Both the position numbers and the translations under genes were made by a program. 64,000 bases of DNA from a virus. Taxonomy: Duplodnaviria > Caudoviricetes. The stretch covers positions 1,785 to 65,784 of the IMG/VR virus record IMGVR_UViG_3300025543_000016; one strand, written 5' to 3'. Shown piece after piece: positions 1-58,243 of the stretch; the first letter of the stretch is position 1; each line of letters opens with the position of its first letter. A model generated the notes under the pieces. That model made no database searches and was not told the origin of the DNA. It saw nothing but the letters and a program-made list of their open reading frames with translations.

Positions 1-3000
1 ACTAACTACATCTCCTGTTTCTGGGTCTATAAATTCAACTTTGTTTTTATTTTGCCTAGTTAAACTTTGATAATTTGCTAAATAAGCATTAATTAATGTA
101 GCTGTAAATTCAGGTCCTTTTAATCCACCATATGTTTTACCTTCTTTATCTAAAATTATACCTCTATTTTCACTATCAAGAACATCTTCAGTTGTTGAAG
201 GTAAAAAGCCATCTTTGGTTCCTGCAACTCTTAATACTTGAAGTCTTTCTTCTTTTGATAATGTTAAAAAAGCAGGGCTATTTAAAAGAATATTTGTTAT
301 ATTAAATCCGTTATCTAATTGTTTTAATTCTTCTAATTTATTAGAATCATTTAAGTCTTGAATTTCTTTTAAATGAAAAGTACCCATTTGATGAGCGTAA
401 ACAAAATTACCTTCAGGATTTAAAAATACACTTTGTCCAATTGTTTCATCAAACATTGCATTTGATTTAGCAAGTTTTTGTAAACGACTTCTAGCACCAC
501 TACCTTTTTTATTAAATAAATAACCAGCACCTGTATTACCTTGTGTACTTAATTTAACTTGATTAGATAATTCTATAATAGCATCTGAATCAATAGCTTC
601 AGCTTGTTTGTTATTATTAATAACTTGATTTAAATAATCATTATTATTTAAATTGTCTGAATTATTTAAGTTAGATATAATGCTAAATTCAATATAAGAA
701 GGGCTTATATTTATACCAAGGTTTTCATAAATGTTAAGTGATAATTCTTTAGCTTTATTTTCAATTTGATCAATTAAATCAACTGAATTTAAATCAAATT
801 CAGCTTCAGTATTATCTAATAAATAAGCTAAATCAGATAAAGAATCAGCTGCTTTGTTTGCAGAAAAATCATCTTTTTTAATAGTATTATATCTAGAACT
901 GTAACCTTGTTTCCAAACATCAATTTGATTAGTTGCATCATCTCTATTTGAAGCATTATAAATAAGCACTTTTTTAATAACATCACTTTGAGATGCGCTA
1001 TGTATAAATAAATAATCAACTTTAAAGTTTTCAAATCCTTTATAGATTTGCATAAATAAACTTGTATTTTTTATTTCTTCTAATACATCTTCTCTTAAAC
1101 CTGTTCTTAATGTTTCTCTTGTTAAACCTATATCATTAAACATTCTATTTACAACAGCATGTGTTTGTTTATTTCCTTTAGAAAACGCATCCATTGCACG
1201 TAAAAAATTAACAGGATCATTAATGTTTTTAACTCCTTTTAATAAACCGTTATATGCGCTTTTAAAATCAACTGGTGTATATATAGGATTTCCTGATGGT
1301 AATTTTGTATTACCAAATTCATCTTCAGCTAAAAGCATTGTGGTTCCAATATAAGCTCTTAAAGCAGTTGGTAAATTGCTAAAACCACCAATCATTGATT
1401 GATCTTTATCCCAATCAGAAACATTTCTTAAACCTTCAAACTCTTCAAACTCTTCATTGAAGTATTCTTTATCTTTAATTTGCTGATCAAATAAAGATAT
1501 GTATTCTGTTATAGCTTCAGTTGCATTTTGTTCAAATTCAATCGCTTGAGTTATTACGTTAATATCTGCATTATCATCTTTACCACCTAAAGCGGTATAT
1601 AATTTATCTAATTTAATTAAATCTTCACCTGATTTATAGGCATTAGTTAAACTAGCAGGATTATATAAAGATCTAAAGTCTTCTATTGTTTCACTTAATA
1701 TGTTAGATCTTGATTCTCCTACTGTAATATTTTTTACTTTAGTTAAATAAGAAGCTGTAATTTGACGTATAACTAAATCAGCAGTATCCGGATCTAAATA
1801 TTTATTTGCAAATCCTCTTTCTAATTCTACTTTAGCATATGTAAGTACTTTGTATGCTTCTACAACAACACCTGTATTAAATTGATTGGTATAAATATTA
1901 TTAACAGAACTGCTAGATTTATATTTACCGGCATCAATGTTTTCAAACAAAGTATTTAATTCATTTTTATTATACTTGCTAAATACAGATTTAATCCATT
2001 CAATAAATCTTGTAAATAAAGATTTAATTACAGGGGATGTTTTAGTAGCGCTTGGGTTAGTTTTAAAAGTTTCAAATTCATCAGCTAAATATTCTTCCAA
2101 ATATTCTTTTTCTAACTGAGCATTTGTCATGCTTTGATACTTTTCAGCTCTGCTTTTAAATTTTTCTAATTCAAGTTTATAGTTTTTATTTTTAGCTTTA
2201 AGTTTAGCAATTACTTCTGTTTTAGCAATAGATAAATACTTTTTAATTTCAGCATCTGATAGTAACAATCTAAATACAGAATGAAACGCTTCATGATATC
2301 TAAAACCTTTTTCGCCAACATAAATTGTTCCTCCTATTTCAACGTTACCTGCAAGTTTATTTAGCTCCATAATAAATACACCAATAGGCATACCTTGAAC
2401 TTTTAATTTAGCAGCAACTTCTTTTATGTTTTTAATTTGAACAAAGTCAGGTAAATTTGCTTGAGCCCAAGCAATAAATTTATCAATAGCTTCTACATCT
2501 TCAACCGTAAAATCATCACTTACTAATTTTGGAGCATATGCATTTAACTTTCTTTCTATTACTGTTAATTCACTTGTAAGTTTTTTATATTGAGGATCAT
2601 TCTTTTTAACAGCAGCGTTAAGAAATTCTAAAGCTGTCATTTGACCTGAATCTTTCATTTCTTGTAATTCAATCAGTCTAACTTTTACCTCTTCTTTTTT
2701 AACATCATATTGATTTTGTAACTGAACTAATTCAGATTCAACATTTGAATTAGCTTTTATTTCATTAGCTTTATATTCAATTAAAGATTTTCTATTACTT
2801 TTAAGAATTATGTTTTCTCTTTCAGTTAAATTTTCTAAACCTTCTAATGCTAATTTGTTAGCTAAATTATTAATATATTCTTTTTCTAAAGTATTAAAAT
2901 TAGTTTTTAAATAAATATCAAACTCTTCATCTGTTAAATCATTAACGTTAGATGTAGAATCCAATACTTGATTTATTTCATCTAGTTTATCCTTAACATC

Positions 3001-6000
3001 TTTAGTAACTGTGCTCTTATCATTTTCATCAGGTAAATTATCTAATAATGCTTTTCCGGTTTTAAGTTTATTTACATCGTCATTACTAAATTGAAATCTA
3101 ACACTTAAATCTTCAAATAATTCTTTTTTTACATTTGTAACAGCAATTTCCATTACTTGATCTGCAGTTAAATCATCATTAATAAATGTTTTAACATTAT
3201 CAATAGAAACAGAAATACCTAAGTTTTTAGTGTCTTTACTTGTTTTAGTCACATCACCAAATACTTTAAGTAATTCAGTAAATGTCATTTTTTCTAAAGT
3301 GTCAACTCTTAAAAAAGCATCAATGTTTAATTTTTTTTCTTTGGCTCCTGTGCTATCAATATATATAATTTCTACACCACCTTTTGCTGTTACTTTAATC
3401 TCAGCATCAATACCTGGTTTAATAGAAATATAAAATTTAGAATTAAATTCATCATTAAATGCATCATTAAAATCAGAATTTAATTTATTACCATCTTCAG
3501 ATATATTTTCATCAATTGTTTTTTTAGCTTGTTTAATAAGATCTTCCATTAAACCTTCATGATTTTCTACAGGAAGAGCTGTAGATTGCAAAGGAACAAA
3601 AATAATTTTTCCGTTTGGTATTTTAACTACAGCATGATATCTATCTTTTCTTTGGCCAACATAATCTAATAAAGTTTTACCTACTGAATTATTAGTTTCA
3701 TTTAATTCATTTAAAATATCATCTCTTAATTTTTTTTCTTCAGGAGAATTCTTTTTATAATTAGTTATGTAACTAGTAAGTTTTTTTCTTTGTTTAGTTT
3801 TAGAATCATAACGTAATCTAGTATCAATAATAAATAATTCACCATTAATTGTGTTATATTCTAATTCAGATAAAGAATTTATACCATCTCTTGCAACATC
3901 AGTTTTAGTTTGATATGAAAATCTATATGCTGTAAAAAAATCAGGAGCAACTTCGTTTAATGGAATTTCAATAATATTATTATCACCAAGTTTTTCTAAT
4001 AAAGCTTGTCTTAATAATTCTTGTTGAGCCATTGCATTTAAAGACTCATCTTTTTTTACAAAATATTTAGCAGCATCGCTATCGCTAAGAGTATAAGGAT
4101 TTTTAATAACTTGACCATCTTCAGTAAGTAATTCAATATTACCAGAAGGAATTTGCAAATTTATATCATCTAGTGTACCTGCATTTCTTTCAACTAATAA
4201 AGCATTAATTTTTTTTCTTAAATCTTGATCTTTTACAACTATACGGAAGCTGTGTGTTTCACCATTAAGTTTAATTAATTTATTTTGTTCTCTACCTGGA
4301 GCTGAATGAAATCTATGATTAGAGACATTTTCATTTTTTTCTACAAGAATTGATAAATTAGAAAGTTGTTCTTTAGTTAAAAATTTAAATATAAGATCTA
4401 CAATATATCTTTGTCTATCGCTAGATTTACTATCTTCAGCTGTCATTGGATAAACATCACGTATATTTCTTACAGTAAGACGAGCTCTATTTTCATTTTT
4501 TAAATTATCAGCAAAGTTTTCTTTTATTAATTCATACTGAGATTTAAATTCGGATTCAGTTACTTTAGCTGAAACTTTCAATCTTTCTTTAGTTGTCTTA
4601 GCTGTTTCAAGTTTATTTTCAGGTAATAAATATAATTTACCTCCTGGATTTACTGTTGATGGAGATCCTAATACAACAAATCTTTCTTTTTTTTCATTTA
4701 TTACAATATCACCATACTTAATAGATTTATCTCCAAACTCAAAAGGAACAGTATCAGGAATTATTTTCTTTAGGATTATGCCAATTTCTATTGCTTTTTT
4801 ACTTGTTGGAAAAGCACGTTGTTCTACTCCTGCTGCTTCATAAAAACTATCAGATAATTCATCACCATTTATATCAACTATTTTATAATAATTATTTTCT
4901 TCATTCTTTTCTTTTATTTCAACAACATAAATATTAGAAGTTATTTTTTTTATAAGTTCTTGATTAGGTTTTAAATTTAATTTGGAATTTTTAGTTATAG
5001 GACCTTTTAAAAATTCAAATGTTAAACCTGCATTTAATACAGTATCTCTTAAAGCAGGATTACTTGAATTATTATTAATCCATTCAGCCATTCCAATTTC
5101 ATTTCTAATAATATTAGCAAAGTCTTTTTGTTTAGGGTCTAAATTTTGAACCCATAACTGTTTAATATCCATTAAATAACTAGCTAATACTTGAGCTTTT
5201 TCAGTTGCTGACCATTTTTCTAATGATAAAGGTTTTTTATTTAATGATAATTGTTCTGTTGCATACTCTGTATATTTTCTTTTTAATATATTTTTAGCAT
5301 AATTATTTACGTTATCATTATTAATAACTTTATTTGCTTTATCTGCTTTATCTTTATTATCAGGTTTATTTGTAGAATCATCAACAAAATTTCCAAATCC
5401 ATCATCAGCTAATTCTTCCTCTACTACTTCAGGTTCAGTTAGTTTAATATAATTATTTTTGTACATTTCAATTGTTATCATGAGCTTTGGGTTATTCATC
5501 ATGGTTATTTCACCACGCTCATCATAAAAATTAACTAATACAATTGAATCTCCATTAGCTAGAAATTCTTTAGCTTGTTCAGCATCAGGTAAAGCTCCTT
5601 CATCATCAATTAATTTTAATAATTGACTTGCTAATTGTTTATCAGAAGATCTTTTAATAGCATCTCTAATTTCAACTCTATCTTGAGCATATTTAATTTT
5701 AAAATAGTTAGCCGTTTTATCAGCAATATCATTAATTACTTCAGGATTAGTTAAAATTTCAGCAGCTTTATCATACATTTTAGTTCTATACTGAAGTGTA
5801 CCATAATCTACAATTTTCTTTAATACGGAATTAATTTTATTTTTATCAACAAAAGCATTATTTACTTTTGCTAAGTAAGCAATATAAGCTTCAAAAGAAG
5901 CTTGTAGTTTAGCAACTTTTCTTCCATCAAATTTACCAGTGCCTTCTTTTTTATTAATTGATGTTTGATTTTCTTTTGCTGTTACTACTTTATAATAGTT

Positions 6001-55027: not shown

Positions 55028-55300
55028 ATGATAAATACAATTAAAGTATATCCGCATACATACATGGATAGAGCAGAAGGAGATCATTTCAAAGCTTTTC
55101 ATATAGCTGATCTTATTCATCAGGGAATTATGAACTTCTTGACTAATAAGTTAGGTTCTATAACCTTTAATGATATTAGTACTAATGAAAGTTATGAAAT
55201 TGAATTAGTTAACGTTGATGATAGAACATTAGATGAAATTAAACTAATGTATCCAAATATATCAATGAGAACTCTTTGCACTTATAAAGACTGGTGCTAA
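55028..55300 (+). CDS. Hypothetical protein
   Basis: ORF track; ATG at 55028 preferred as start. Confidence 0.55.
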   Translation: MINTIKVYPHTYMDRAEGDHFKAFHIADLIHQGIMNFLTNKLGSITFNDISTNESYEIELVNVDDRTLDEIKLMYPNISMRTLCTYKDWC

Positions 55301-55428
55301 TGTTCTTTGAAGATGCAGAATTTGCTTGGGAGCTCTATAAGATATCTCCTGAGCTAACTTGTACTTGTGATGAAGTACATGTATGTCAACAGTGCTATAA
55401 AGAATGGCAAGAAGACTTAGAAGAGTAG
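55300..55428 (+). CDS. Small acidic Cys-rich protein (42 aa)
   Basis: MFFEDAEFAWELYKISPELTCTCDEVHVCQQCYKEWQEDLEE*; TAATG coupling to the upstream ORF. Confidence 0.55.
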   Translation: MFFEDAEFAWELYKISPELTCTCDEVHVCQQCYKEWQEDLEE

Positions 55429-55446
55429 CCTGTCAGCTTATCTTCG

Positions 55447-55580
55447 TACACGTTAGGTCCAAGTATGGCCGTTGGGTTTGACAACCCTGAACCGTGTATT
55501 TGACTTGTCTGTGGTATATGTAACAGTCACCGTCAACCGGGTAAACGGTCGTTAAGAGGTAACCATGCTCTTTATTTTTT
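55447..55580 (+). ncRNA. Candidate structured RNA (multi-hairpin) ending in a terminator-like stem
   Basis: tacacg/cgtgta encloses the ggtc/ggcc and gggtt/aaccc hairpins; then tgact/agtca, ccgt/acgg and aagag/ctctt plus a U-run. Confidence 0.45.
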
Positions 55581-55600
55581 CACCTTAAAACAAAAACATC

Positions 55601-55777
55601 ATGCTAACAAGAATCTTAGTAGTGCTATTAACAATATTTGTAGCATTTAACTGCTTTAGAGCAGGACATTATGCATCACAAGGAGGAGATACTGGAAGTG
55701 CAGTGTTACTCTTCATTATTGGTGTTGCATCTTTATATATACCATTAATCCTAAAAGAAAAACCTAATAATACCTAA
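55601..55777 (+). CDS. Small two-TM membrane protein (58 aa)
   Basis: MLTRILVVLLTIFVAFNCF..SAVLLFIIGVASLYIPLILKEK; A-rich leader. Confidence 0.6.
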   Translation: MLTRILVVLLTIFVAFNCFRAGHYASQGGDTGSAVLLFIIGVASLYIPLILKEKPNNT

Positions 55778-56084
55778 ACATCATGAGAATATATGTAAAA
55801 AATCCAGGCAGATTTGCCAAGTACAAGGATCAAGTTGTACTAACACACTTATAATAATTATTACATGAATATATATTTATATAGCTACAAAGATCATAAT
55901 TACTGTAGTTGCAAATAGATATTTATTGTTATCTCTCTCTATAGTATTATATGTCTTATTACTTATAAGAGAAGTATTATATCAACCGTGATGTTGTAAA
56001 AATATTAAACACTTTAAATCAGCTGTCTATATAGATAAGAGTTCAAAGCCTCTATAAATGATGATGAGAGTGTATTTAGTTAGT

Positions 56085-56480
56085 TTAGCATTTAAGTCTT
56101 ATTTATAAGCTTTGAAGTCCAGCTGACAAATGACAATTAACACATTTACCACTTTGAACAGGTAAATGCTAATATCAGTCATTTGTTAACATGTACAAAC
56201 ACTAAACCTAAGAAACTAACGATTATGTGATACCTATTTAACATAATGACGAAAAGTAGGGAGCTTTTAATATTATTCTGTATTAATTGCTATATCTTCA
56301 AATGTGAGAAACTTGAAGATGAATCTCATTAAACATTGAGTAAACATTATAGAATTGCAGTTTAGTAGCTGTAAATGTTTTTACTAACTCAATGTTTATT
56401 AAATATTACAAGTGTGTAGGATGCTAAAAGGCTAGACCACTCTGACAGTTAAACTCTGTTGGCACACTTGTTTTATTTTT
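56085..56480 (+). ncRNA. Cluster of candidate structured RNA domains
   Basis: Closing stems 56085-56094/56163-56172, 56330-56341/56387-56398 and 56408-56416/56463-56471; possible pseudoknot at 56294-56329. Confidence 0.45.
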
Positions 56481-56591
56481 ATTACATTAAAGACAACCAG
56501 GAGTCTATAAAATAACCTTTTGATAAGACTGGACGAAATATTACATTAACTATAATTAATATCAAGGTTTAACAATATAAATAACAATATT

Positions 56592-56825
56592 ATGTCACAT
56601 AATACAACTAAAATAATAACAGCAATTGCAATACAACTACTATCACAACATAGTGTTAAAGTGATTGAGGGGTATAAATTATCAGTTATAACTAGTTATA
56701 CATCTGAATTAGAAGATATATCTAAAAAATATAACTTAAAAATGGTTGAGTCATTTAATCAACAATTTACTGTTCAAGGTATATTTGAAGTAACAAATAG
56801 TACTCATCATACTATAACATTATAA
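56592..56825 (+). CDS. Hypothetical protein
   Basis: ORF track; A-rich leader. Confidence 0.5.
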   Translation: MSHNTTKIITAIAIQLLSQHSVKVIEGYKLSVITSYTSELEDISKKYNLKMVESFNQQFTVQGIFEVTNSTHHTITL

Positions 56826-56897
56826 TAGAATAACAACATTAAACCTGACTAGAGATAACATCAAAGGTCAGGTTATTAAAAACAAATAAATAATACT

Positions 56898-57137
56898 ATG
56901 AACATCACATTAATTTACCTCGTAACAACAGATAATGGAGAATTACCTGAATTTGCAACAACTGAAAGATTATTAGCAGTAGTTGATAATGAAAAAGATT
57001 TACATACAATAGTAGATAAATATCATACTGCTGAAAGAAATTATAAAGCTGATGGAGATATTCCTCAATATCTACAAGATTTATATGATACAGAAATTAG
57101 AACTGAAGAAATTACACTTAATCAAGAAATAGAATAA
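56898..57137 (+). CDS. Hypothetical protein
   Basis: ORF track; A-rich leader. Confidence 0.6.
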   Translation: MNITLIYLVTTDNGELPEFATTERLLAVVDNEKDLHTIVDKYHTAERNYKADGDIPQYLQDLYDTEIRTEEITLNQEIE

Positions 57138-57141
57138 GTGT

Positions 57142-57299
57142 ATTTAAAAATAACGGCAGGTGGATGTATTATTCCTTAAATGAAAAGACTGCACAGACCC
57201 GTAAAGTCGGGTGGATATATTGTGATTATTCCACAATGACTTAGAGCTGAAATTCAAAGTAAGTAGCCCTTTAAGGTAGGTAGGTAAACCTTTTTAAAT
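57142..57299 (+). ncRNA. Candidate multi-stem structured RNA
   Basis: atttaaaaa/tttttaaat and ccttaaa/tttaagg enclose the acccg/cgggt, attgtg/cacaat and actta/taagt hairpins. Confidence 0.5.
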
Positions 57300-57322
57300 T
57301 AAATCCAATAAATAATAATATT

Positions 57323-57703
57323 ATGAATATTCAATTTGAAAAAAAATGGGATAATATGTCTCAAGAAGAATTAGTAAAAAAGATTAAAGCTGTAAAAAGC
57401 CAACTCTTTGCTCTTCAGTATCAGTTACACGCATATAATGATGGGTATTTATACCTAACATGTTTGCGTAGCTATGGTTCTTTGTCCTGGGAAACTCATA
57501 TTAATGAGTATACAGTTCAAGAACTTTGTGACCAGTATGACGGTTATGATGGAATAGTAGATGTTTATACTACTAATCCTAACACTACTGTTACTACTGA
57601 GGGATCTGTAGAAATAATGACTCTTGATGAAATTAAAAATGTTTCTCAAGATAACATTTCCATGTCAGCAGCTGTAAGTAACTGGATTACGAAGAGTATG
57701 TGA
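57323..57703 (+). CDS. Hypothetical protein
   Basis: ORF track; A-rich leader. Confidence 0.65.
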   Translation: MNIQFEKKWDNMSQEELVKKIKAVKSQLFALQYQLHAYNDGYLYLTCLRSYGSLSWETHINEYTVQELCDQYDGYDGIVDVYTTNPNTTVTTEGSVEIMTLDEIKNVSQDNISMSAAVSNWITKSM

Positions 57704-57949
57704 TTAAGATGGGGGCTTATTATTAGCCTGGCAACAGAAAAATTTCACCTAAGCATGTGTCTAAACTGCTTTATAAACTCTCATCCAATTGCAGGTGTTA
57801 TAGCAATAACAAGAAGAATTTATAAACAAACATTTATATTATTAATATTTAAATCACCCAGAAAGAAGAAGGGTTAGTGTAAATAAATAAAAATATAGCA
57901 CGCTTTCTGGTAGTGATTTTACTGACAGAGTGGGAAGCCCACATCTTAA
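57704..57949 (+). ncRNA. Candidate ~245-nt structured RNA A
   Basis: 14/15-bp closing inverted repeat at 57704-57718/57935-57949; internal GNRA hairpin, possible pseudoknot and ccagaaag/ctttctgg stem. Confidence 0.55.
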
Positions 57950-57966
57950 AATAAAACATTATAATT

Positions 57967-58222
57967 AAACATTGAACCAAGTGAATAAGGGACCAATCCT
58001 GCCAGCAAATTTGGTGTGAGTTGATAGCTGGTATTCACATAAAGATACTAATCCTGAATTGACAGGTTCTAATAGTAAGGAAACTTATGCTATTATTGAG
58101 AGAGTAATCTTAGTTGTGTTGTTCCTGTTGAAAGGAATGCGGGGATAAATAGAGATAGAAGTTGCTAACCGTAACTCTACAACACAGATGTCTCAACATC
58201 ATCTTTAGGTTCAATGTTTTTT
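57967..58222 (+). ncRNA. Candidate ~255-nt structured RNA B
   Basis: Perfect 12-bp closing stem at 57967-57978/58208-58219, at least eight nested helices, and a terminal U-run. Confidence 0.65.
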
Positions 58223-58243
58223 AATATAAAAAAATATAATACA

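What the first reader, a model, noticed from the sequence alone, without database searches (positions are those of the whole stretch)
55430..58222. Island of long-range-paired non-coding elements interleaved with early genes
Seen: most of this ~2.8 kb is non-coding, unlike the densely coding remainder. It divides into at least seven domains, each closed by a 6-15-bp inverted repeat: 55447-55498, 56085-56172, 56330-56398, 56408-56471, 57142-57299, 57704-57949 and 57967-58219. Two closing stems share the core aaacattga/tcaatgttt. Inference: an array of phage ncRNAs (decoys or antitoxin-like RNAs against host defence, or ribozymes), or RNase III-type processing stems like those in the T7 early transcript. 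I could not match any to a known family.
Basis: partly seen in the sequence, partly recalled or inferred. Interest (0 to 1): 0.8.

Follow-up and report, generated by a model that had tools for sequence, protein, structure and literature searches.

The report
Ribozyme-studded early RNA island in phage

Summary
The seven stems exist where stated, and about 63% of the span lies outside ORFs. Stems of 9-10 bp are no commoner than in shuffles; only the two 12-bp stems stand out. What is really there came from homology. A RAGATH-1 hammerhead lies at 56490-56568, over Rfam's cut-off. A twister-like ribozyme lies at 56011-56071; it scores below the cut-off, but all its helices and both pseudoknots are kept by compensatory changes. 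Together they bracket a 548-nt hairpin-rich RNA (fold z -5.2) that contains reader domains 2-4. Domain 7 (57967-58219) belongs to a covarying RNA family absent from Rfam (profile E 3e-23). Its phi14:2 homologue lies in the gap that holds the published abundant early lncRNAs. Domain 6 carries only the 5' half of a second conserved motif. Domains 1 and 5 have no support beyond their stems. Contigs from three RNA libraries cover the non-coding elements exactly. Best reading: an early transcript cut by ribozymes into stable ncRNAs and leader-trimmed small-ORF mRNAs. No cleavage or function was tested.

The parts
55429..55575 (+). GC-rich (about 47%) non-coding spacer. It contains reader domain 1 (55447-55498) and ends in a weak hairpin followed by a T-run. 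Unresolved.
   Evidence: GC profile. Fold z +0.4 for the whole spacer and -0.5 for domain 1. No homologue by blastn in 977 kb of related loci or by an 18-mer scan of viral contigs, which gave 6 unrelated hits. One exact 151-nt contig in RNA library X6 at 55417-55567.
56011..56071 (+). Twister-like self-cleaving ribozyme, type P1 layout. P1 can extend to 56009-56073. Predicted cut between U56015 and A56016.
   Evidence: Rfam twister-P1 46.6 bits, E 2.7e-8, below the gathering score of 67.2. P1, P2 and P4 pair. The T1 and T2 pseudoknots are kept by compensatory changes, also in a second copy at L056 1551-1613. Pseudoknot definitions come from PMC5408937 (passages).
56016..56563 (+). Predicted 548-nt RNA bounded by the two ribozyme cuts, expected to carry a 5'-OH and a 2',3'-cyclic phosphate. 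It is hairpin-rich and contains reader domains 2, 3 and 4.
   Evidence: MFE -128.2 kcal/mol, z -5.17, 0 of 100 shuffles as stable. Exact RNA-library contigs at 56030-56180 (X17), 56037-56200 (X8), 56307-56464 (X6), 56312-56462 (X8) and 56313-56463 (X17). No homologue found.
56330..56398 (+). Long imperfect hairpin (reader domain 3). Its 5' arm repeats the decamer TAAACATTGA, which is the invariant loop of the domain-7 RNA family.
   Evidence: z -5.13, 0 of 200 shuffles as stable. It is one of only two 12-bp stems above chance. Covered by contigs of three RNA libraries.
56408..56483 (+). Stem-closed element (reader domain 4, 56408-56471) followed by a T-rich run. Terminator-like. Contigs from three RNA libraries stop at 56462-56464.
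   Evidence: z -1.5; sequence; contig ends, with DNA-run contig 56435-56585 running through that point. This is a weak hint only.
56490..56568 (+). RAGATH-1-type hammerhead ribozyme (type I layout). Predicted cut after C56563.
   Evidence: Rfam RF03152 57.0 bits against the gathering score of 56.3. Stems I and III pair. The loop/stem-II pseudoknot covaries across copies. The core reads UUGAUAA in 4 of 4 copies of the window's group and CUGAUGA in 12 of 14 other copies.
56564..56591 (+). 28-nt leader left on the first small-ORF mRNA after hammerhead cleavage.
   Evidence: Almost identical after the cleavage site in the window, L037 and L116. The 18-mer before the ATG recurs at 57308-57325: 2 matches against 0.30 expected.
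56592..56825 (+). Small ORF (77 aa) with no family.
56832..56874 (+). Conserved intergenic hairpin: stem 56842-56849 with 56867-56874, and a loop holding GATAACATCAA.
   Evidence: Five clear copies in four related loci, plus one weak copy in L061, with G-C to C-G swaps in the stem.
56898..57137 (+). Small ORF (79 aa) with no family.
57142..57299 (+). Reader domain 5. Unsupported apart from its A/T-only closing stem. It sits upstream of ORF 57323, the same relative position the hammerhead holds before ORF 56592.
   Evidence: z -0.36. No homologue. No exact RNA contig. No Rfam match at E up to 5.
57323..57703 (+). Small ORF (126 aa) with no confident family and no relatives in viral contigs.
57704..57949 (+). 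Reader domain 6. It contains the exact 20-mer AACTCTCATCCAATTGCAGG (57776-57795), which is the 5' half of a conserved two-part motif ('motif 1'). The 3' half is absent from the window.
   Evidence: The 20-mer is exact in 33 viral-contig stretches. There are 27 distinct full copies, with P1 in the MFE fold of 24 of 27. The profile matches only 57774-57804, E 3.5e-7. The 3' half is not in the window at up to 3 mismatches. z -1.9.
57965..58219 (+). Reader domain 7: a 3'-shortened member of a conserved structured RNA family ('motif 2'). Helices: 57981-57986 with 58033-58038; hairpin 58052-58067; GNRA hairpin 58101-58110; 58115-58121 with 58180-58186; hairpin 58122-58137.
   Evidence: A profile built from 17 relatives without the window matches 57965-58195 at E 3e-23, the only hit in 64 kb. 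Covariation is shown. The phi14:2 homologue is at 2910-3218, E 2.4e-53. RNA contigs at 57984-58204 (X6) and 58016-58197 (X8). z -3.65.

Best explanation
The island is the early non-coding RNA and RNA-processing region of a distant crAss-like phage. Rightward early transcription runs through a series of RNA modules set between small orphan ORFs.

Two of the modules are self-cleaving ribozymes. A twister-like element would cut at 56015/56016. A RAGATH-1 hammerhead would cut at 56563/56564. Together they would release a 548-nt hairpin-rich RNA with a 5'-OH and a 2',3'-cyclic phosphate. They would also leave the next ORF (ATG at 56592) with a conserved 28-nt A/U-rich leader that starts with a 5'-OH.

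Further downstream lie a conserved intergenic hairpin, a half copy of a conserved motif, and a shortened member of a conserved structured RNA family. The phi14:2 homologue of that family lies in the g004-g006 gap, which holds the two junctions reported to be transcribed early, very strongly and stably.

Shown here: the family matches, the covariation and the RNA-library coverage. Inferred: that the ribozymes cleave, that cleavage serves to separate stable ncRNAs from mRNAs and to set mRNA 5' ends, and that the region is 'early'. The closing inverted repeats are mostly incidental.
For: Hammerhead. It scores over Rfam's curated cut-off (57.0 against 56.3). Stems I and III are intact. The loop/stem-II pseudoknot covaries across copies (CCAG/CUGG, CUAG/CUAG, CCAAGG/CUUGG, CCUAGG/CUAGG).

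Conserved layout. Long leader, then hammerhead, then near-identical post-cleavage leader, then ATG is shared by the window, L037 and L116. The copy in L058 runs off its contig end.

Twister. E 2.7e-8. P1, P2 and P4 pair. L4 reads UCA where the model has CCC, and the L1 3' strand reads UGA where the model has GGG, so T1 is kept. L2 GC pairs with L4 GC, so T2 is kept. The copy in G001 keeps both with different letters (UCUA/UAGA for T1; AC/GU for T2) (definitions from PMC5408937).

The 548-nt RNA folds at z -5.17.

RNA libraries. In three libraries from three study codes, 9 of the 10 exact contigs lie wholly or mostly on non-coding elements (the exception is 55119-55428), and none lies on ORFs 56592-57703.

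Domain 7. nhmmer E 3e-23. In the family alignment, 9 of 21 pairs show changes on both sides, against 3.5 +/- 1.2 in shuffles (0 of 500 reached 9). 96.3% of cells are paired, against 29-52% when the partners are slid by 1-3 columns.

Published context. Drobysheva et al. (bioRxiv 10.1101/2020.03.07.982082; passages read) report that the phi14:2 junctions g004-g005 and g005-g006 are transcribed above most genes, early and stably, with function unknown. Reviews (passages) state that bacterial and phage ribozymes cluster together, flank small non-conserved ORFs, and may process polycistronic transcripts.
Against: No cleavage was tested.

The twister is 20 bits below Rfam's gathering score and changes four nucleotides that are normally strongly conserved. 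The hammerhead is only 0.7 bit over its cut-off and departs from the core at positions 3 and 8. That this pair is tolerated is my recollection and comes from no call.

The closest relatives by endolysin (15 loci) share the flanks but not the island DNA. Rfam at gathering threshold found only tRNAs in the 9 of those loci that were searched. A model of the two twisters found no third copy in 1.0 Mb of related loci. The ribozymes are therefore sporadic, not a fixed part of the locus.

The RNA evidence consists of contigs. They give no strand and no true ends, and DNA carry-over cannot be excluded. No contig joined 56563 back to 56016.

Domains 1, 2 to 4 and 5 have no homologues, so their structures are untested. 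'Early' rests on analogy with phi14:2, and the coordinates of its g005 were not visible to me.
Confidence: 0.6

Rival explanations
1. RNase III-type processing array, as in the T7 early transcript. The stem-closed domains would be double-stranded substrates for a host endonuclease that separates the early mRNAs, and the ribozymes would be incidental.
For: Hairpin 56330-56398 has about 26 paired positions with internal loops and folds at z -5.1. The 548-nt stretch is a chain of long hairpins. Structured elements sit between ORFs.
Against: Five of the seven closing stems are at chance level. The one intergenic hairpin that is conserved has only an 8-bp stem, which to my knowledge is too short for RNase III. 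The two positions where processing is best predicted are occupied by self-cleaving ribozymes. No RNase III site model was available to test.
Confidence: 0.12
2. The RNAs are anti-defence decoys or sponges. In this reading they are abundant, stable early RNAs whose conserved loops (the invariant UAAACAUUGA of the domain-7 family, and the 12-nt core of motif 1) bind a host protein or RNA. This concerns function and is compatible with ribozyme processing.
For: The decamer is invariant in 18 of 18 aligned family members. In 21 of 23 regions examined it has no complementary partner nearby, as expected for a site that acts in trans. The phi14:2 homologue lies in the gap that holds the abundant, stable early lncRNAs (paper passages). 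The family is phage-specific: its core 20-mer matched only 2 contigs among the genomes of 185,579 species, and one of them, about 100 kb long, looks like a binned phage.
Against: No target is known. No defence gene or host is linked to this phage. In the window the decamer is paired to a complementary arm both times it occurs, so it may not be exposed. Nothing here tests binding.
Confidence: 0.15
3. Miniature inverted-repeat mobile elements. The closing repeats would be terminal inverted repeats of small insertions, two of them from one family that shares AAACATTGA.
For: The units are bounded by inverted repeats, two of which share a 9-12-nt terminal sequence. The island's content differs from that of close relatives.
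Against: Homologues of domain 7 in 21 of 23 regions lack the 3' arm altogether, so the repeat is not an element end. No further copies turned up in the window or in viral contigs, where the gapped pattern gave one unrelated hit. No target-site duplications were seen in the sequence.
Confidence: 0.03
4. Chance stems in an AT-rich spacer. For reader domains 1, 2 and 5 in particular, nothing functional is defined by the stated stems.
For: The number of 9-10-bp inverted repeats equals that in shuffles and in coding chunks. z-scores are -0.4 to -0.7. No homologues were found. Domain 2 is not in the MFE fold of its own stretch or of the 548-nt RNA.
Against: As an account of the whole island it fails. 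Two Rfam ribozymes, two conserved RNA motifs, a fold z of -5.2 and RNA contigs are all present. Domain 1 lies in a stretch of 47% GC within a 28% GC genome.
Confidence: 0.1

Closest known systems
RAGATH-1 hammerhead ribozyme (Rfam RF03152)
   Same: Full-length match over the gathering score. The 5' hairpin, AUAAAAU linker, stem I, GAAA, stem III and cleavage triplet are all in place. The pseudoknot between the 5' hairpin loop and the stem-II position covaries as in other copies. It lies in a large phage genome, as do the 24 other loci found with the pattern.
   Different: The core reads UUGAUAA instead of CUGAUGA: positions 3 and 8 are changed together. This is so in all 4 copies of the window's group. 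It is very AU-rich and scores only 57 bits, against 69-86 bits for 19 of the other 20 matches (the 20th, 60.7 bits).
Twister ribozyme, type P1 (Rfam RF03160)
   Same: The order P1, U-A site, P2, L2, small hairpin, P4/L4, UAAA, P2', L1, P1' is kept. Both pseudoknots can form. The A after the cut is kept. So is the first G of the L1 3' strand, which I recall to be the catalytic guanine.
   Different: It scores 46.6 bits against the gathering score of 67.2. The three T1 pairs are U-A, C-G and A-U instead of three C-G pairs. GC content is 31%.
Early long non-coding RNAs of Cellulophaga phage phi14:2 (Drobysheva et al., bioRxiv 10.1101/2020.03.07.982082)
   Same: Window 57965-58195 is homologous to phi14:2 2910-3218. 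That stretch starts 6 nt after g004 in the 1.7-kb gene-free gap between g004 and g006. The paper reports rightward, early, strong and stable transcription of the junctions in this gap. In both phages the RNA lies in a rightward block of small ORFs.
   Different: The window's copy lacks the 3' domain: the blocks after the fourth helix and the long terminal hairpin. It also lacks the local hairpin that presents the invariant decamer, which pairs instead with the RNA's own 3' end. phi14:2 has a tmRNA gene in the same gap, and the window has none. In its first 9 kb phi14:2 shows no ribozyme (E up to 0.01) and no motif 1. That 2910-3218 equals the 'g004-g005 junction' is my inference.
Ribozyme-rich loci near small phage ORFs (the basis of the RAGATH searches; reviews PMC6765202 and PMC6155905, passages read)
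   Same: Different self-cleaving classes lie close together, flanking small non-conserved ORFs in phage DNA. Their function is unknown, and processing of polycistronic transcripts has been proposed. Other loci with RAGATH-1 hammerheads fetched here also carry hatchet, RAGATH-14 and RAGATH-34 RNAs.
   Different: Here the ribozymes share the locus with two conserved RNA motifs that are in no Rfam family, in a crAss-like phage.
RNase III processing sites of the T7 early transcript
   Same: Structured elements lie between early genes of a lytic phage.
   Different: Here the best-supported cutters are cis-acting ribozymes, and most of the stems are at chance level. What I know of the T7 sites is recalled.

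Membership tests
RAGATH-1 hammerhead (RF03152) | Score at or above Rfam's gathering score | tested here: met
   57.0 bits against 56.3, over model positions 1-77 of 77.
RAGATH-1 hammerhead (RF03152) | Catalytic core CUGAUGA ... GAAA and a cleavable triplet | tested here: inconclusive
   GAAA and the triplet AUC are present. The core reads UUGAUAA, with positions 3 and 8 both changed, in 4 of 4 copies of this group. That these two positions pair and tolerate a swap is recalled, not tested.
RAGATH-1 hammerhead (RF03152) | Stems I and III, and the pseudoknot that stands in for stem II | tested here: met
   Stem I is AACCUU/AAGGUU and stem III is AUAUUA/UAAUAU. Pseudoknot CCAG/CUGG in the window; other copies show other complementary pairs.
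RAGATH-1 hammerhead (RF03152) | Self-cleavage | not testable with these tools
   Needs an in vitro assay.
Twister, type P1 (RF03160) | Score at or above Rfam's gathering score | tested here: not met
   46.6 bits against 67.2, E 2.7e-8. I therefore call it twister-like and do not file it as a member.
Twister, type P1 (RF03160) | Helices P1, P2 and P4 | tested here: met
   All pairs are standard in the cmscan alignment and in the two-sequence model.
Twister, type P1 (RF03160) | Pseudoknots T1 (L4 with L1) and T2 (L4 with L2) | tested here: met
   Window: T1 UCA/UGA, T2 GC/GC. G001 copy: T1 UCUA/UAGA, T2 AC/GU. Definitions come from PMC5408937.
Twister, type P1 (RF03160) | U-A scissile dinucleotide next to P1, and the active-site guanine | tested here: met
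   U56015-A56016. G56063 aligns with the first G of the model's GAGGG. The identification of that G as the catalytic one is partly recalled (table seen).
Twister, type P1 (RF03160) | Self-cleavage | not testable with these tools
   Needs an in vitro assay.
phi14:2-type early structured RNA ('motif 2', unnamed, not in Rfam) | Match to a sequence profile built from the other members | tested here: met
   nhmmer E 3e-23 at 57965-58195, with the profile built without the window.
phi14:2-type early structured RNA ('motif 2', unnamed, not in Rfam) | The four covarying helices | tested here: met
   The window forms a standard pair at 20 of the 21 counted positions; at columns 135/150 its hairpin 2 has a U-U.
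phi14:2-type early structured RNA ('motif 2', unnamed, not in Rfam) | A local 5' hairpin that presents the invariant UAAACAUUGA | tested here: not met
   The decamer is present, but the flanking GG..CC stem is missing. The decamer pairs instead with 58208-58219.
phi14:2-type early structured RNA ('motif 2', unnamed, not in Rfam) | The 3' domain (the block holding TCTCAGC and the terminal hairpin that starts CCCTACTCTTAT) | tested here: not met
   Absent from the window. TCTCAGC is present in 19 of the 27 other rows and CCCTACTCTTAT in 15 of them.
Motif 1 (AACUCUCA ... UGAGAGUU, unnamed, not in Rfam) | The 5' block of 20 nt | tested here: met
   Exact at 57776-57795.
Motif 1 (AACUCUCA ... UGAGAGUU, unnamed, not in Rfam) | The 3' block (hairpin CAAGG..CCUUG plus the P1 3' strand) | tested here: not met
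   No match in the window at up to 3 mismatches. The profile covers only positions 2-32.
RNase III processing site (T7 type) | A long irregular duplex between genes that RNase III cuts | not testable with these tools
   Only 56330-56398 has a suitable length. No model or assay was available.
Miniature inverted-repeat transposable element | Terminal inverted repeats kept in all copies, several copies, target-site duplication | tested here: not met
   The 3' arm is missing in 21 of 23 relatives' regions. No other copies were found.

The most novel reading that the evidence does not exclude
The island is an 'RNA operon' with two unusual products. The first is a 548-nt hairpin RNA cut out by a twister and a hammerhead. 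It would carry the end chemistry (5'-OH, 2',3'-cyclic phosphate) that a host RtcB-type ligase could join into a circle. The second is a shortened member of an undescribed, widespread family of large structured RNAs of aquatic crAss-like phages. The working part of that family would be the invariant decamer loop UAAACAUUGA, acting in trans on a host molecule. In this phage the decamer occurs twice, and both times it is masked by a perfectly complementary arm. Its exposure would then depend on processing or refolding.
Probability: 0.2. Interest if true: 0.8.

Novelty: new variant of a known kind. Interest (0 to 1): 0.62.

Why it matters
What self-cleaving ribozymes do in phages and bacteria is an open question (reviews read). 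The crAss-like model phage phi14:2 makes abundant early lncRNAs whose function is also unknown.

This locus ties the two questions together. It shows ribozymes placed exactly at the borders between a structured RNA and a small-ORF mRNA with a conserved leader. It also shows that the phi14:2 gene-free gap that holds those lncRNAs contains a member of a covarying RNA family, here also traced to 26 viral-contig stretches and 2 genome-collection contigs, plus what is probably a tmRNA.

That gives concrete, cheap tests: cleavage assays, end mapping, and deletion in phi14:2. It also gives two candidate new RNA families for curation.

Tried and rejected
Database and homologue searches that found nothing:
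- tRNA or tmRNA in the window: none.
- blastn of the island against cultured phages: no match.
- Relatives through the 126-aa ORF: none.
- PHROGs for 9 small ORFs: nothing confident.
- Island DNA in the 15 endolysin relatives: only the flanks match. Rfam on 9 of them found only tRNAs.
- Metagenome scan with the hammerhead variant: 2 contigs, one already held.
- Homologues of 55429-55600, 56072-56329, 56330-56489 and 57138-57322: blastn against 113 loci (977 kb) found nothing below E 0.01. Only the AT-rich stretch 55778-56010 gave weak hits, which look like low-complexity matches.
- Gapped-stem scan for domain 3: one unrelated contig-end repeat.
- 18-mer scan for domain 1: 6 chance hits in unrelated phages.
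- Twister covariance model over 1.0 Mb: only its two training sequences.
- Rfam on a relative's motif 1 plus motif 2 at E up to 10: only noise.

Readings considered and dropped:
- TAG or TGA read-through to make 55429-55600 coding. Rejected because the long late ORFs are open under table 11.
- The sigma-70 promoter scan is not informative: 47 sites against 37.9 +/- 7.1 in shuffles.
- The motif-1 20-mer as an early promoter. This could not be tested. phi14:2 lacks the motif, and the paper found no common early motif.

Weak or unavailable evidence:
RNA-library parts without cover are not evidence of silence.
- The original RAGATH paper is not held, so its content is recalled.
- Supplements of the phi14:2 paper, which hold gene coordinates and transcript tables, could not be seen.

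Full report
**Setting.** The window is nearly all of a 65.8-kb IMG/VR virus record, estimated 57% complete, with about 28% GC. A long leftward block encodes a terminase, a portal, a major head protein, giant virion proteins and an endolysin. The portal finds only distant relatives, at most 33% identity, among crAss-like, Flavobacterium, Cellulophaga and one Leptolyngbya phage. Transcription turns rightward near 54.1 kb into small orphan ORFs. DNA runs that hold the stretch are labelled freshwater or aquatic.

**The observation.** A shuffle test shows that the stems as a class are not special. Perfect inverted repeats of 9 bp or more within 300 nt number 7, against 6.6 +/- 2.5 expected. Those of 10 bp or more number 3, against 1.9. 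Only those of 12 bp or more are enriched: 2 against 0.13, with 5 of 300 shuffles reaching 2. Coding chunks of the window have as many short repeats. Fold z-scores are strong only for 56330-56398 (-5.1) and 57967-58219 (-3.65). They are weak for 57704-57949 (-1.9) and 56408-56471 (-1.5), and nil for the other three. The shared core AAACATTGA occurs 7 times in the window against 2.4 expected.

Rfam at gathering threshold gives one hit in 64 kb: a RAGATH-1 hammerhead at 56490-56568 (57.0 bits, cut-off 56.3).
- A permissive scan of 54-59 kb adds a type-P1 twister match at 56011-56071 (46.6 bits, cut-off 67.2, E 2.7e-8). The three other rows are noise at E 2-4.
- I fetched other RAGATH-1 copies with a pattern (24 loci). 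Twenty of those loci were scanned, and they held 20 hammerhead matches over the cut-off in 18 loci.
- Side by side, the loop of the 5' hairpin and the stem-II position stay complementary through changes on both sides: CCAG/CUGG in the window, and CUAG/CUAG, CCAAGG/CUUGG or CCUAGG/CUAGG elsewhere.
- The window, L037, L058 and L116 (4 of 4) read UUGAUAA where 12 of the 14 other copies printed read CUGAUGA. The other two were not parsed; one of them holds CUGAUGA by eye. From memory, positions 3 and 8 pair in the active hammerhead, so this would be a compensated change. I did not verify that.
- The predicted cut is after C56563.

**The twister.** A review (PMC5408937; passages) defines T1 as three Watson-Crick pairs plus an A-A between L4 and L1. 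It defines T2 as two L4 nucleotides pairing with a conserved GC in L2.
- In the cmscan alignment the window has UCA in L4 where the model has CCC, and UGA in the L1 3' strand where the model has GGG. These are two double changes, and all three pairs are kept. The T2 pair GC/GC is kept as well.
- A second sub-threshold twister in a related record (L056 1551-1613; 45.8 bits) keeps T1 as UCUA/UAGA and T2 as AC/GU.
- P1, P2 and P4 pair in both copies. The U-A site and the first G of the L1 3' strand are present.
- I read it as a genuine AU-rich twister fold. Because it fails Rfam's cut-off and was not assayed, I call it twister-like.
- A model of the two sequences found no third copy in 1.0 Mb of related loci.

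**What the two cuts would do.** Cleavage at 56015/56016 and 56563/56564 bounds a 548-nt RNA that contains reader domains 2, 3 and 4.
- It folds far better than shuffles (-128.2 kcal/mol, z -5.17, 0 of 100).
- In that fold domain 2's stem is replaced by other pairings, while domains 3 and 4 persist.
- Downstream, the mRNA of ORF 56592 would start with a 28-nt leader. That leader is nearly identical in L037 and L116.
- Those contigs show the same order: upstream ORF with terminator, a 430-700-nt non-coding leader, the hammerhead, the conserved leader, and a small ORF. L058 shows it as far as its hammerhead, where the contig ends. L037 and L116 continue with a conserved hairpin.
- That hairpin (window 56832-56874) has five clear copies in four related loci, with G-C to C-G swaps in the stem.

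**Domain 7.** Per-domain blastn linked 57950-58230 to L066, L068 and to phi14:2.
- The conserved 20-mer ACTAATCCTGAATTGACAGG is exact in 26 viral-contig stretches. In the genome collection it is exact in only 2 MAG contigs, one of them about 100 kb long.
- I aligned 18 of the 21 distinct copies; L095, L103 and L110 were dropped. The alignment shows invariant blocks separated by variable inserts.
- RNAalifold predicts 25 pairs, 9 of them with compensatory changes.
- For 21 pairs in four helices, 96.3% of cells pair, against 89.1% in shuffles and 29-52% when slid. Nine pairs change on both sides, against 3.5 +/- 1.2 (0 of 500). The covariation score is 0.236 against 0.105 (0 of 500). The structure was derived from the same alignment, which favours it in the slid control.
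- A profile built without the window hits the window once, at 57965-58195, with E 3e-23. It hits phi14:2 at 2910-3218 with E 2.4e-53.
- The window forms a standard pair at 20 of these 21 positions. It lacks the family's 3' domain. Its invariant decamer UAAACAUUGA is not held in the usual local hairpin but pairs with 58208-58219.
- In 21 of 23 relatives' regions no such complement exists within -150 to +800 nt.
- Neither this family nor motif 1 matches any Rfam model.

**Link to phi14:2.** In NC_021806 the homologue starts 6 nt after g004, in a 1.7-kb gap whose small ORFs were withdrawn in 2020.
- The bioRxiv paper (passages) says the g004-g005 and g005-g006 junctions are transcribed rightward, at the earliest time point, above most genes and without later decline, with functions to be determined.
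- ARAGORN and Rfam place a tmRNA at 4031-4500 in the same gap. L066 has a permuted tmRNA just after its motif-2 copy.
- I infer that one of the two lncRNAs is the motif-2 RNA and the other is the tmRNA. The supplements that would settle this were closed.

**Domain 6.** Its only conserved part is the 20-mer at 57776-57795, which is exact in 33 viral-contig stretches.
- In 27 distinct full copies it is the 5' half of a unit AACUCUCA-UCCAAUUGCAGG-[35-165 nt of variable hairpins]-CAAGG(loop ending GCAA)CCUUG-UGAGAGUU.
- The outer helix appears in the MFE fold of 24 of 27 copies, and the variable middle has a mean z of -1.06.
- The window lacks the 3' half; the copy in L058 likewise shows only the 5' part. 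Where both motifs occur in one locus, motif 1 lies upstream of motif 2 on the same strand (5 of 5 loci), as in the window. Many loci have only one of the two.
- I could not assign a function.

**RNA evidence.** One call laid contigs of three RNA libraries (X6, X8, X17; three study codes, same year) and one DNA run.
- Exact RNA contigs: 56030-56180 and 56313-56463 (X17); 56037-56200, 56312-56462 and 58016-58197 (X8); 55119-55428, 55417-55567, 55732-55882, 56307-56464 and 57984-58204 (X6).
- None lies on ORFs 56592-57703. Three libraries stop at 56462-56464, where a DNA contig runs on.
- This fits stable RNAs from the twister-hammerhead segment and from domain 7. But contigs give no strand or true ends, DNA carry-over is possible, and no control stretch could be laid.

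**Unresolved.** Domains 1 and 5, and the inner structure of the 548-nt RNA, have no homologues, so nothing beyond thermodynamics speaks for their stems.

**Verdict.** This is a real and interesting early RNA island. Its substance is two ribozymes plus conserved but uncharacterised phage RNAs, not the inverted repeats. The kind of locus (ribozymes clustered around small phage ORFs) is known. The AU-rich compensated ribozyme variants, and their company of two RNA families absent from Rfam, one tied to the phi14:2 lncRNA, are new variants worth follow-up.

Noticed in passing
L090 (NC_021806) 4031-4500; L066 3463-3817: phi14:2 carries a tmRNA gene (ARAGORN gives a tag peptide; Rfam tmRNA 46 bits against a cut-off of 47) inside the gene-free gap described in print as a source of abundant lncRNA. 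A related contig has a permuted tmRNA right after its motif-2 RNA. The window has none.
   Followed up: partly
L059-L089 (for example L063 13292-13372): Motif 1 is a compact conserved RNA-like unit of 81-212 nt with invariant ends AACUCUCA/UGAGAGUU, an invariant 12-nt strand, and a hairpin whose loop always ends in GCAA (complementary to UUGC in that strand). It is absent from Rfam. It could be a new structured RNA or ribozyme candidate.
   Followed up: partly
phi14:2 record 3256-3364, against Cellulophaga phages phi4:1 and phi17:2 at about 131.5-132.0 kb: The 3' module of the phi14:2 RNA is shared at about 75% identity with unannotated DNA of 145-kb Cellulophaga phages that otherwise lack the RNA. 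The RNA therefore looks modular.
   Followed up: no
window 56246-56332 (+): A 28-codon ORF (ATG to TAA) with three cysteines lies inside the ribozyme-bounded RNA, and its stop overlaps the start of hairpin 56330-56398. It is too short to judge and no homologues were sought.
   Followed up: no
L023 18-165, L039 652-845, L030 8775-8872: Other large phage contigs that carry RAGATH-1 hammerheads also hold a hatchet ribozyme, a RAGATH-14 RNA and a RAGATH-34 RNA within a few kb, along with many tRNAs.
   Followed up: no
L056 1549-1615 and 1645 onward: In related record G001 the twister-like ribozyme ends about 30 nt before the ATG of a small ORF, so it would stay attached to that mRNA's 5' end.
   Followed up: no
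L016 246-3050; L002 1793-2036: Endolysin relatives of this phage carry tRNA arrays (20 tRNA matches in L016, 3 in L002). The window has no tRNA at all.
   Followed up: no
L117, L118: The only two genome-collection contigs that hold the motif-2 core are MAG contigs labelled Clostridium and Mollicutes. One is 100,089 nt long, the size of a crAss-like phage genome, so it is probably a phage contig binned with bacteria.
   Followed up: no
window 57151-57170 and 57202-57221: Domain 5 contains two 20-nt direct repeats 51 nt apart (80% alike), each able to form a small GGA/UCC-type hairpin. Their meaning is unknown.
   Followed up: no
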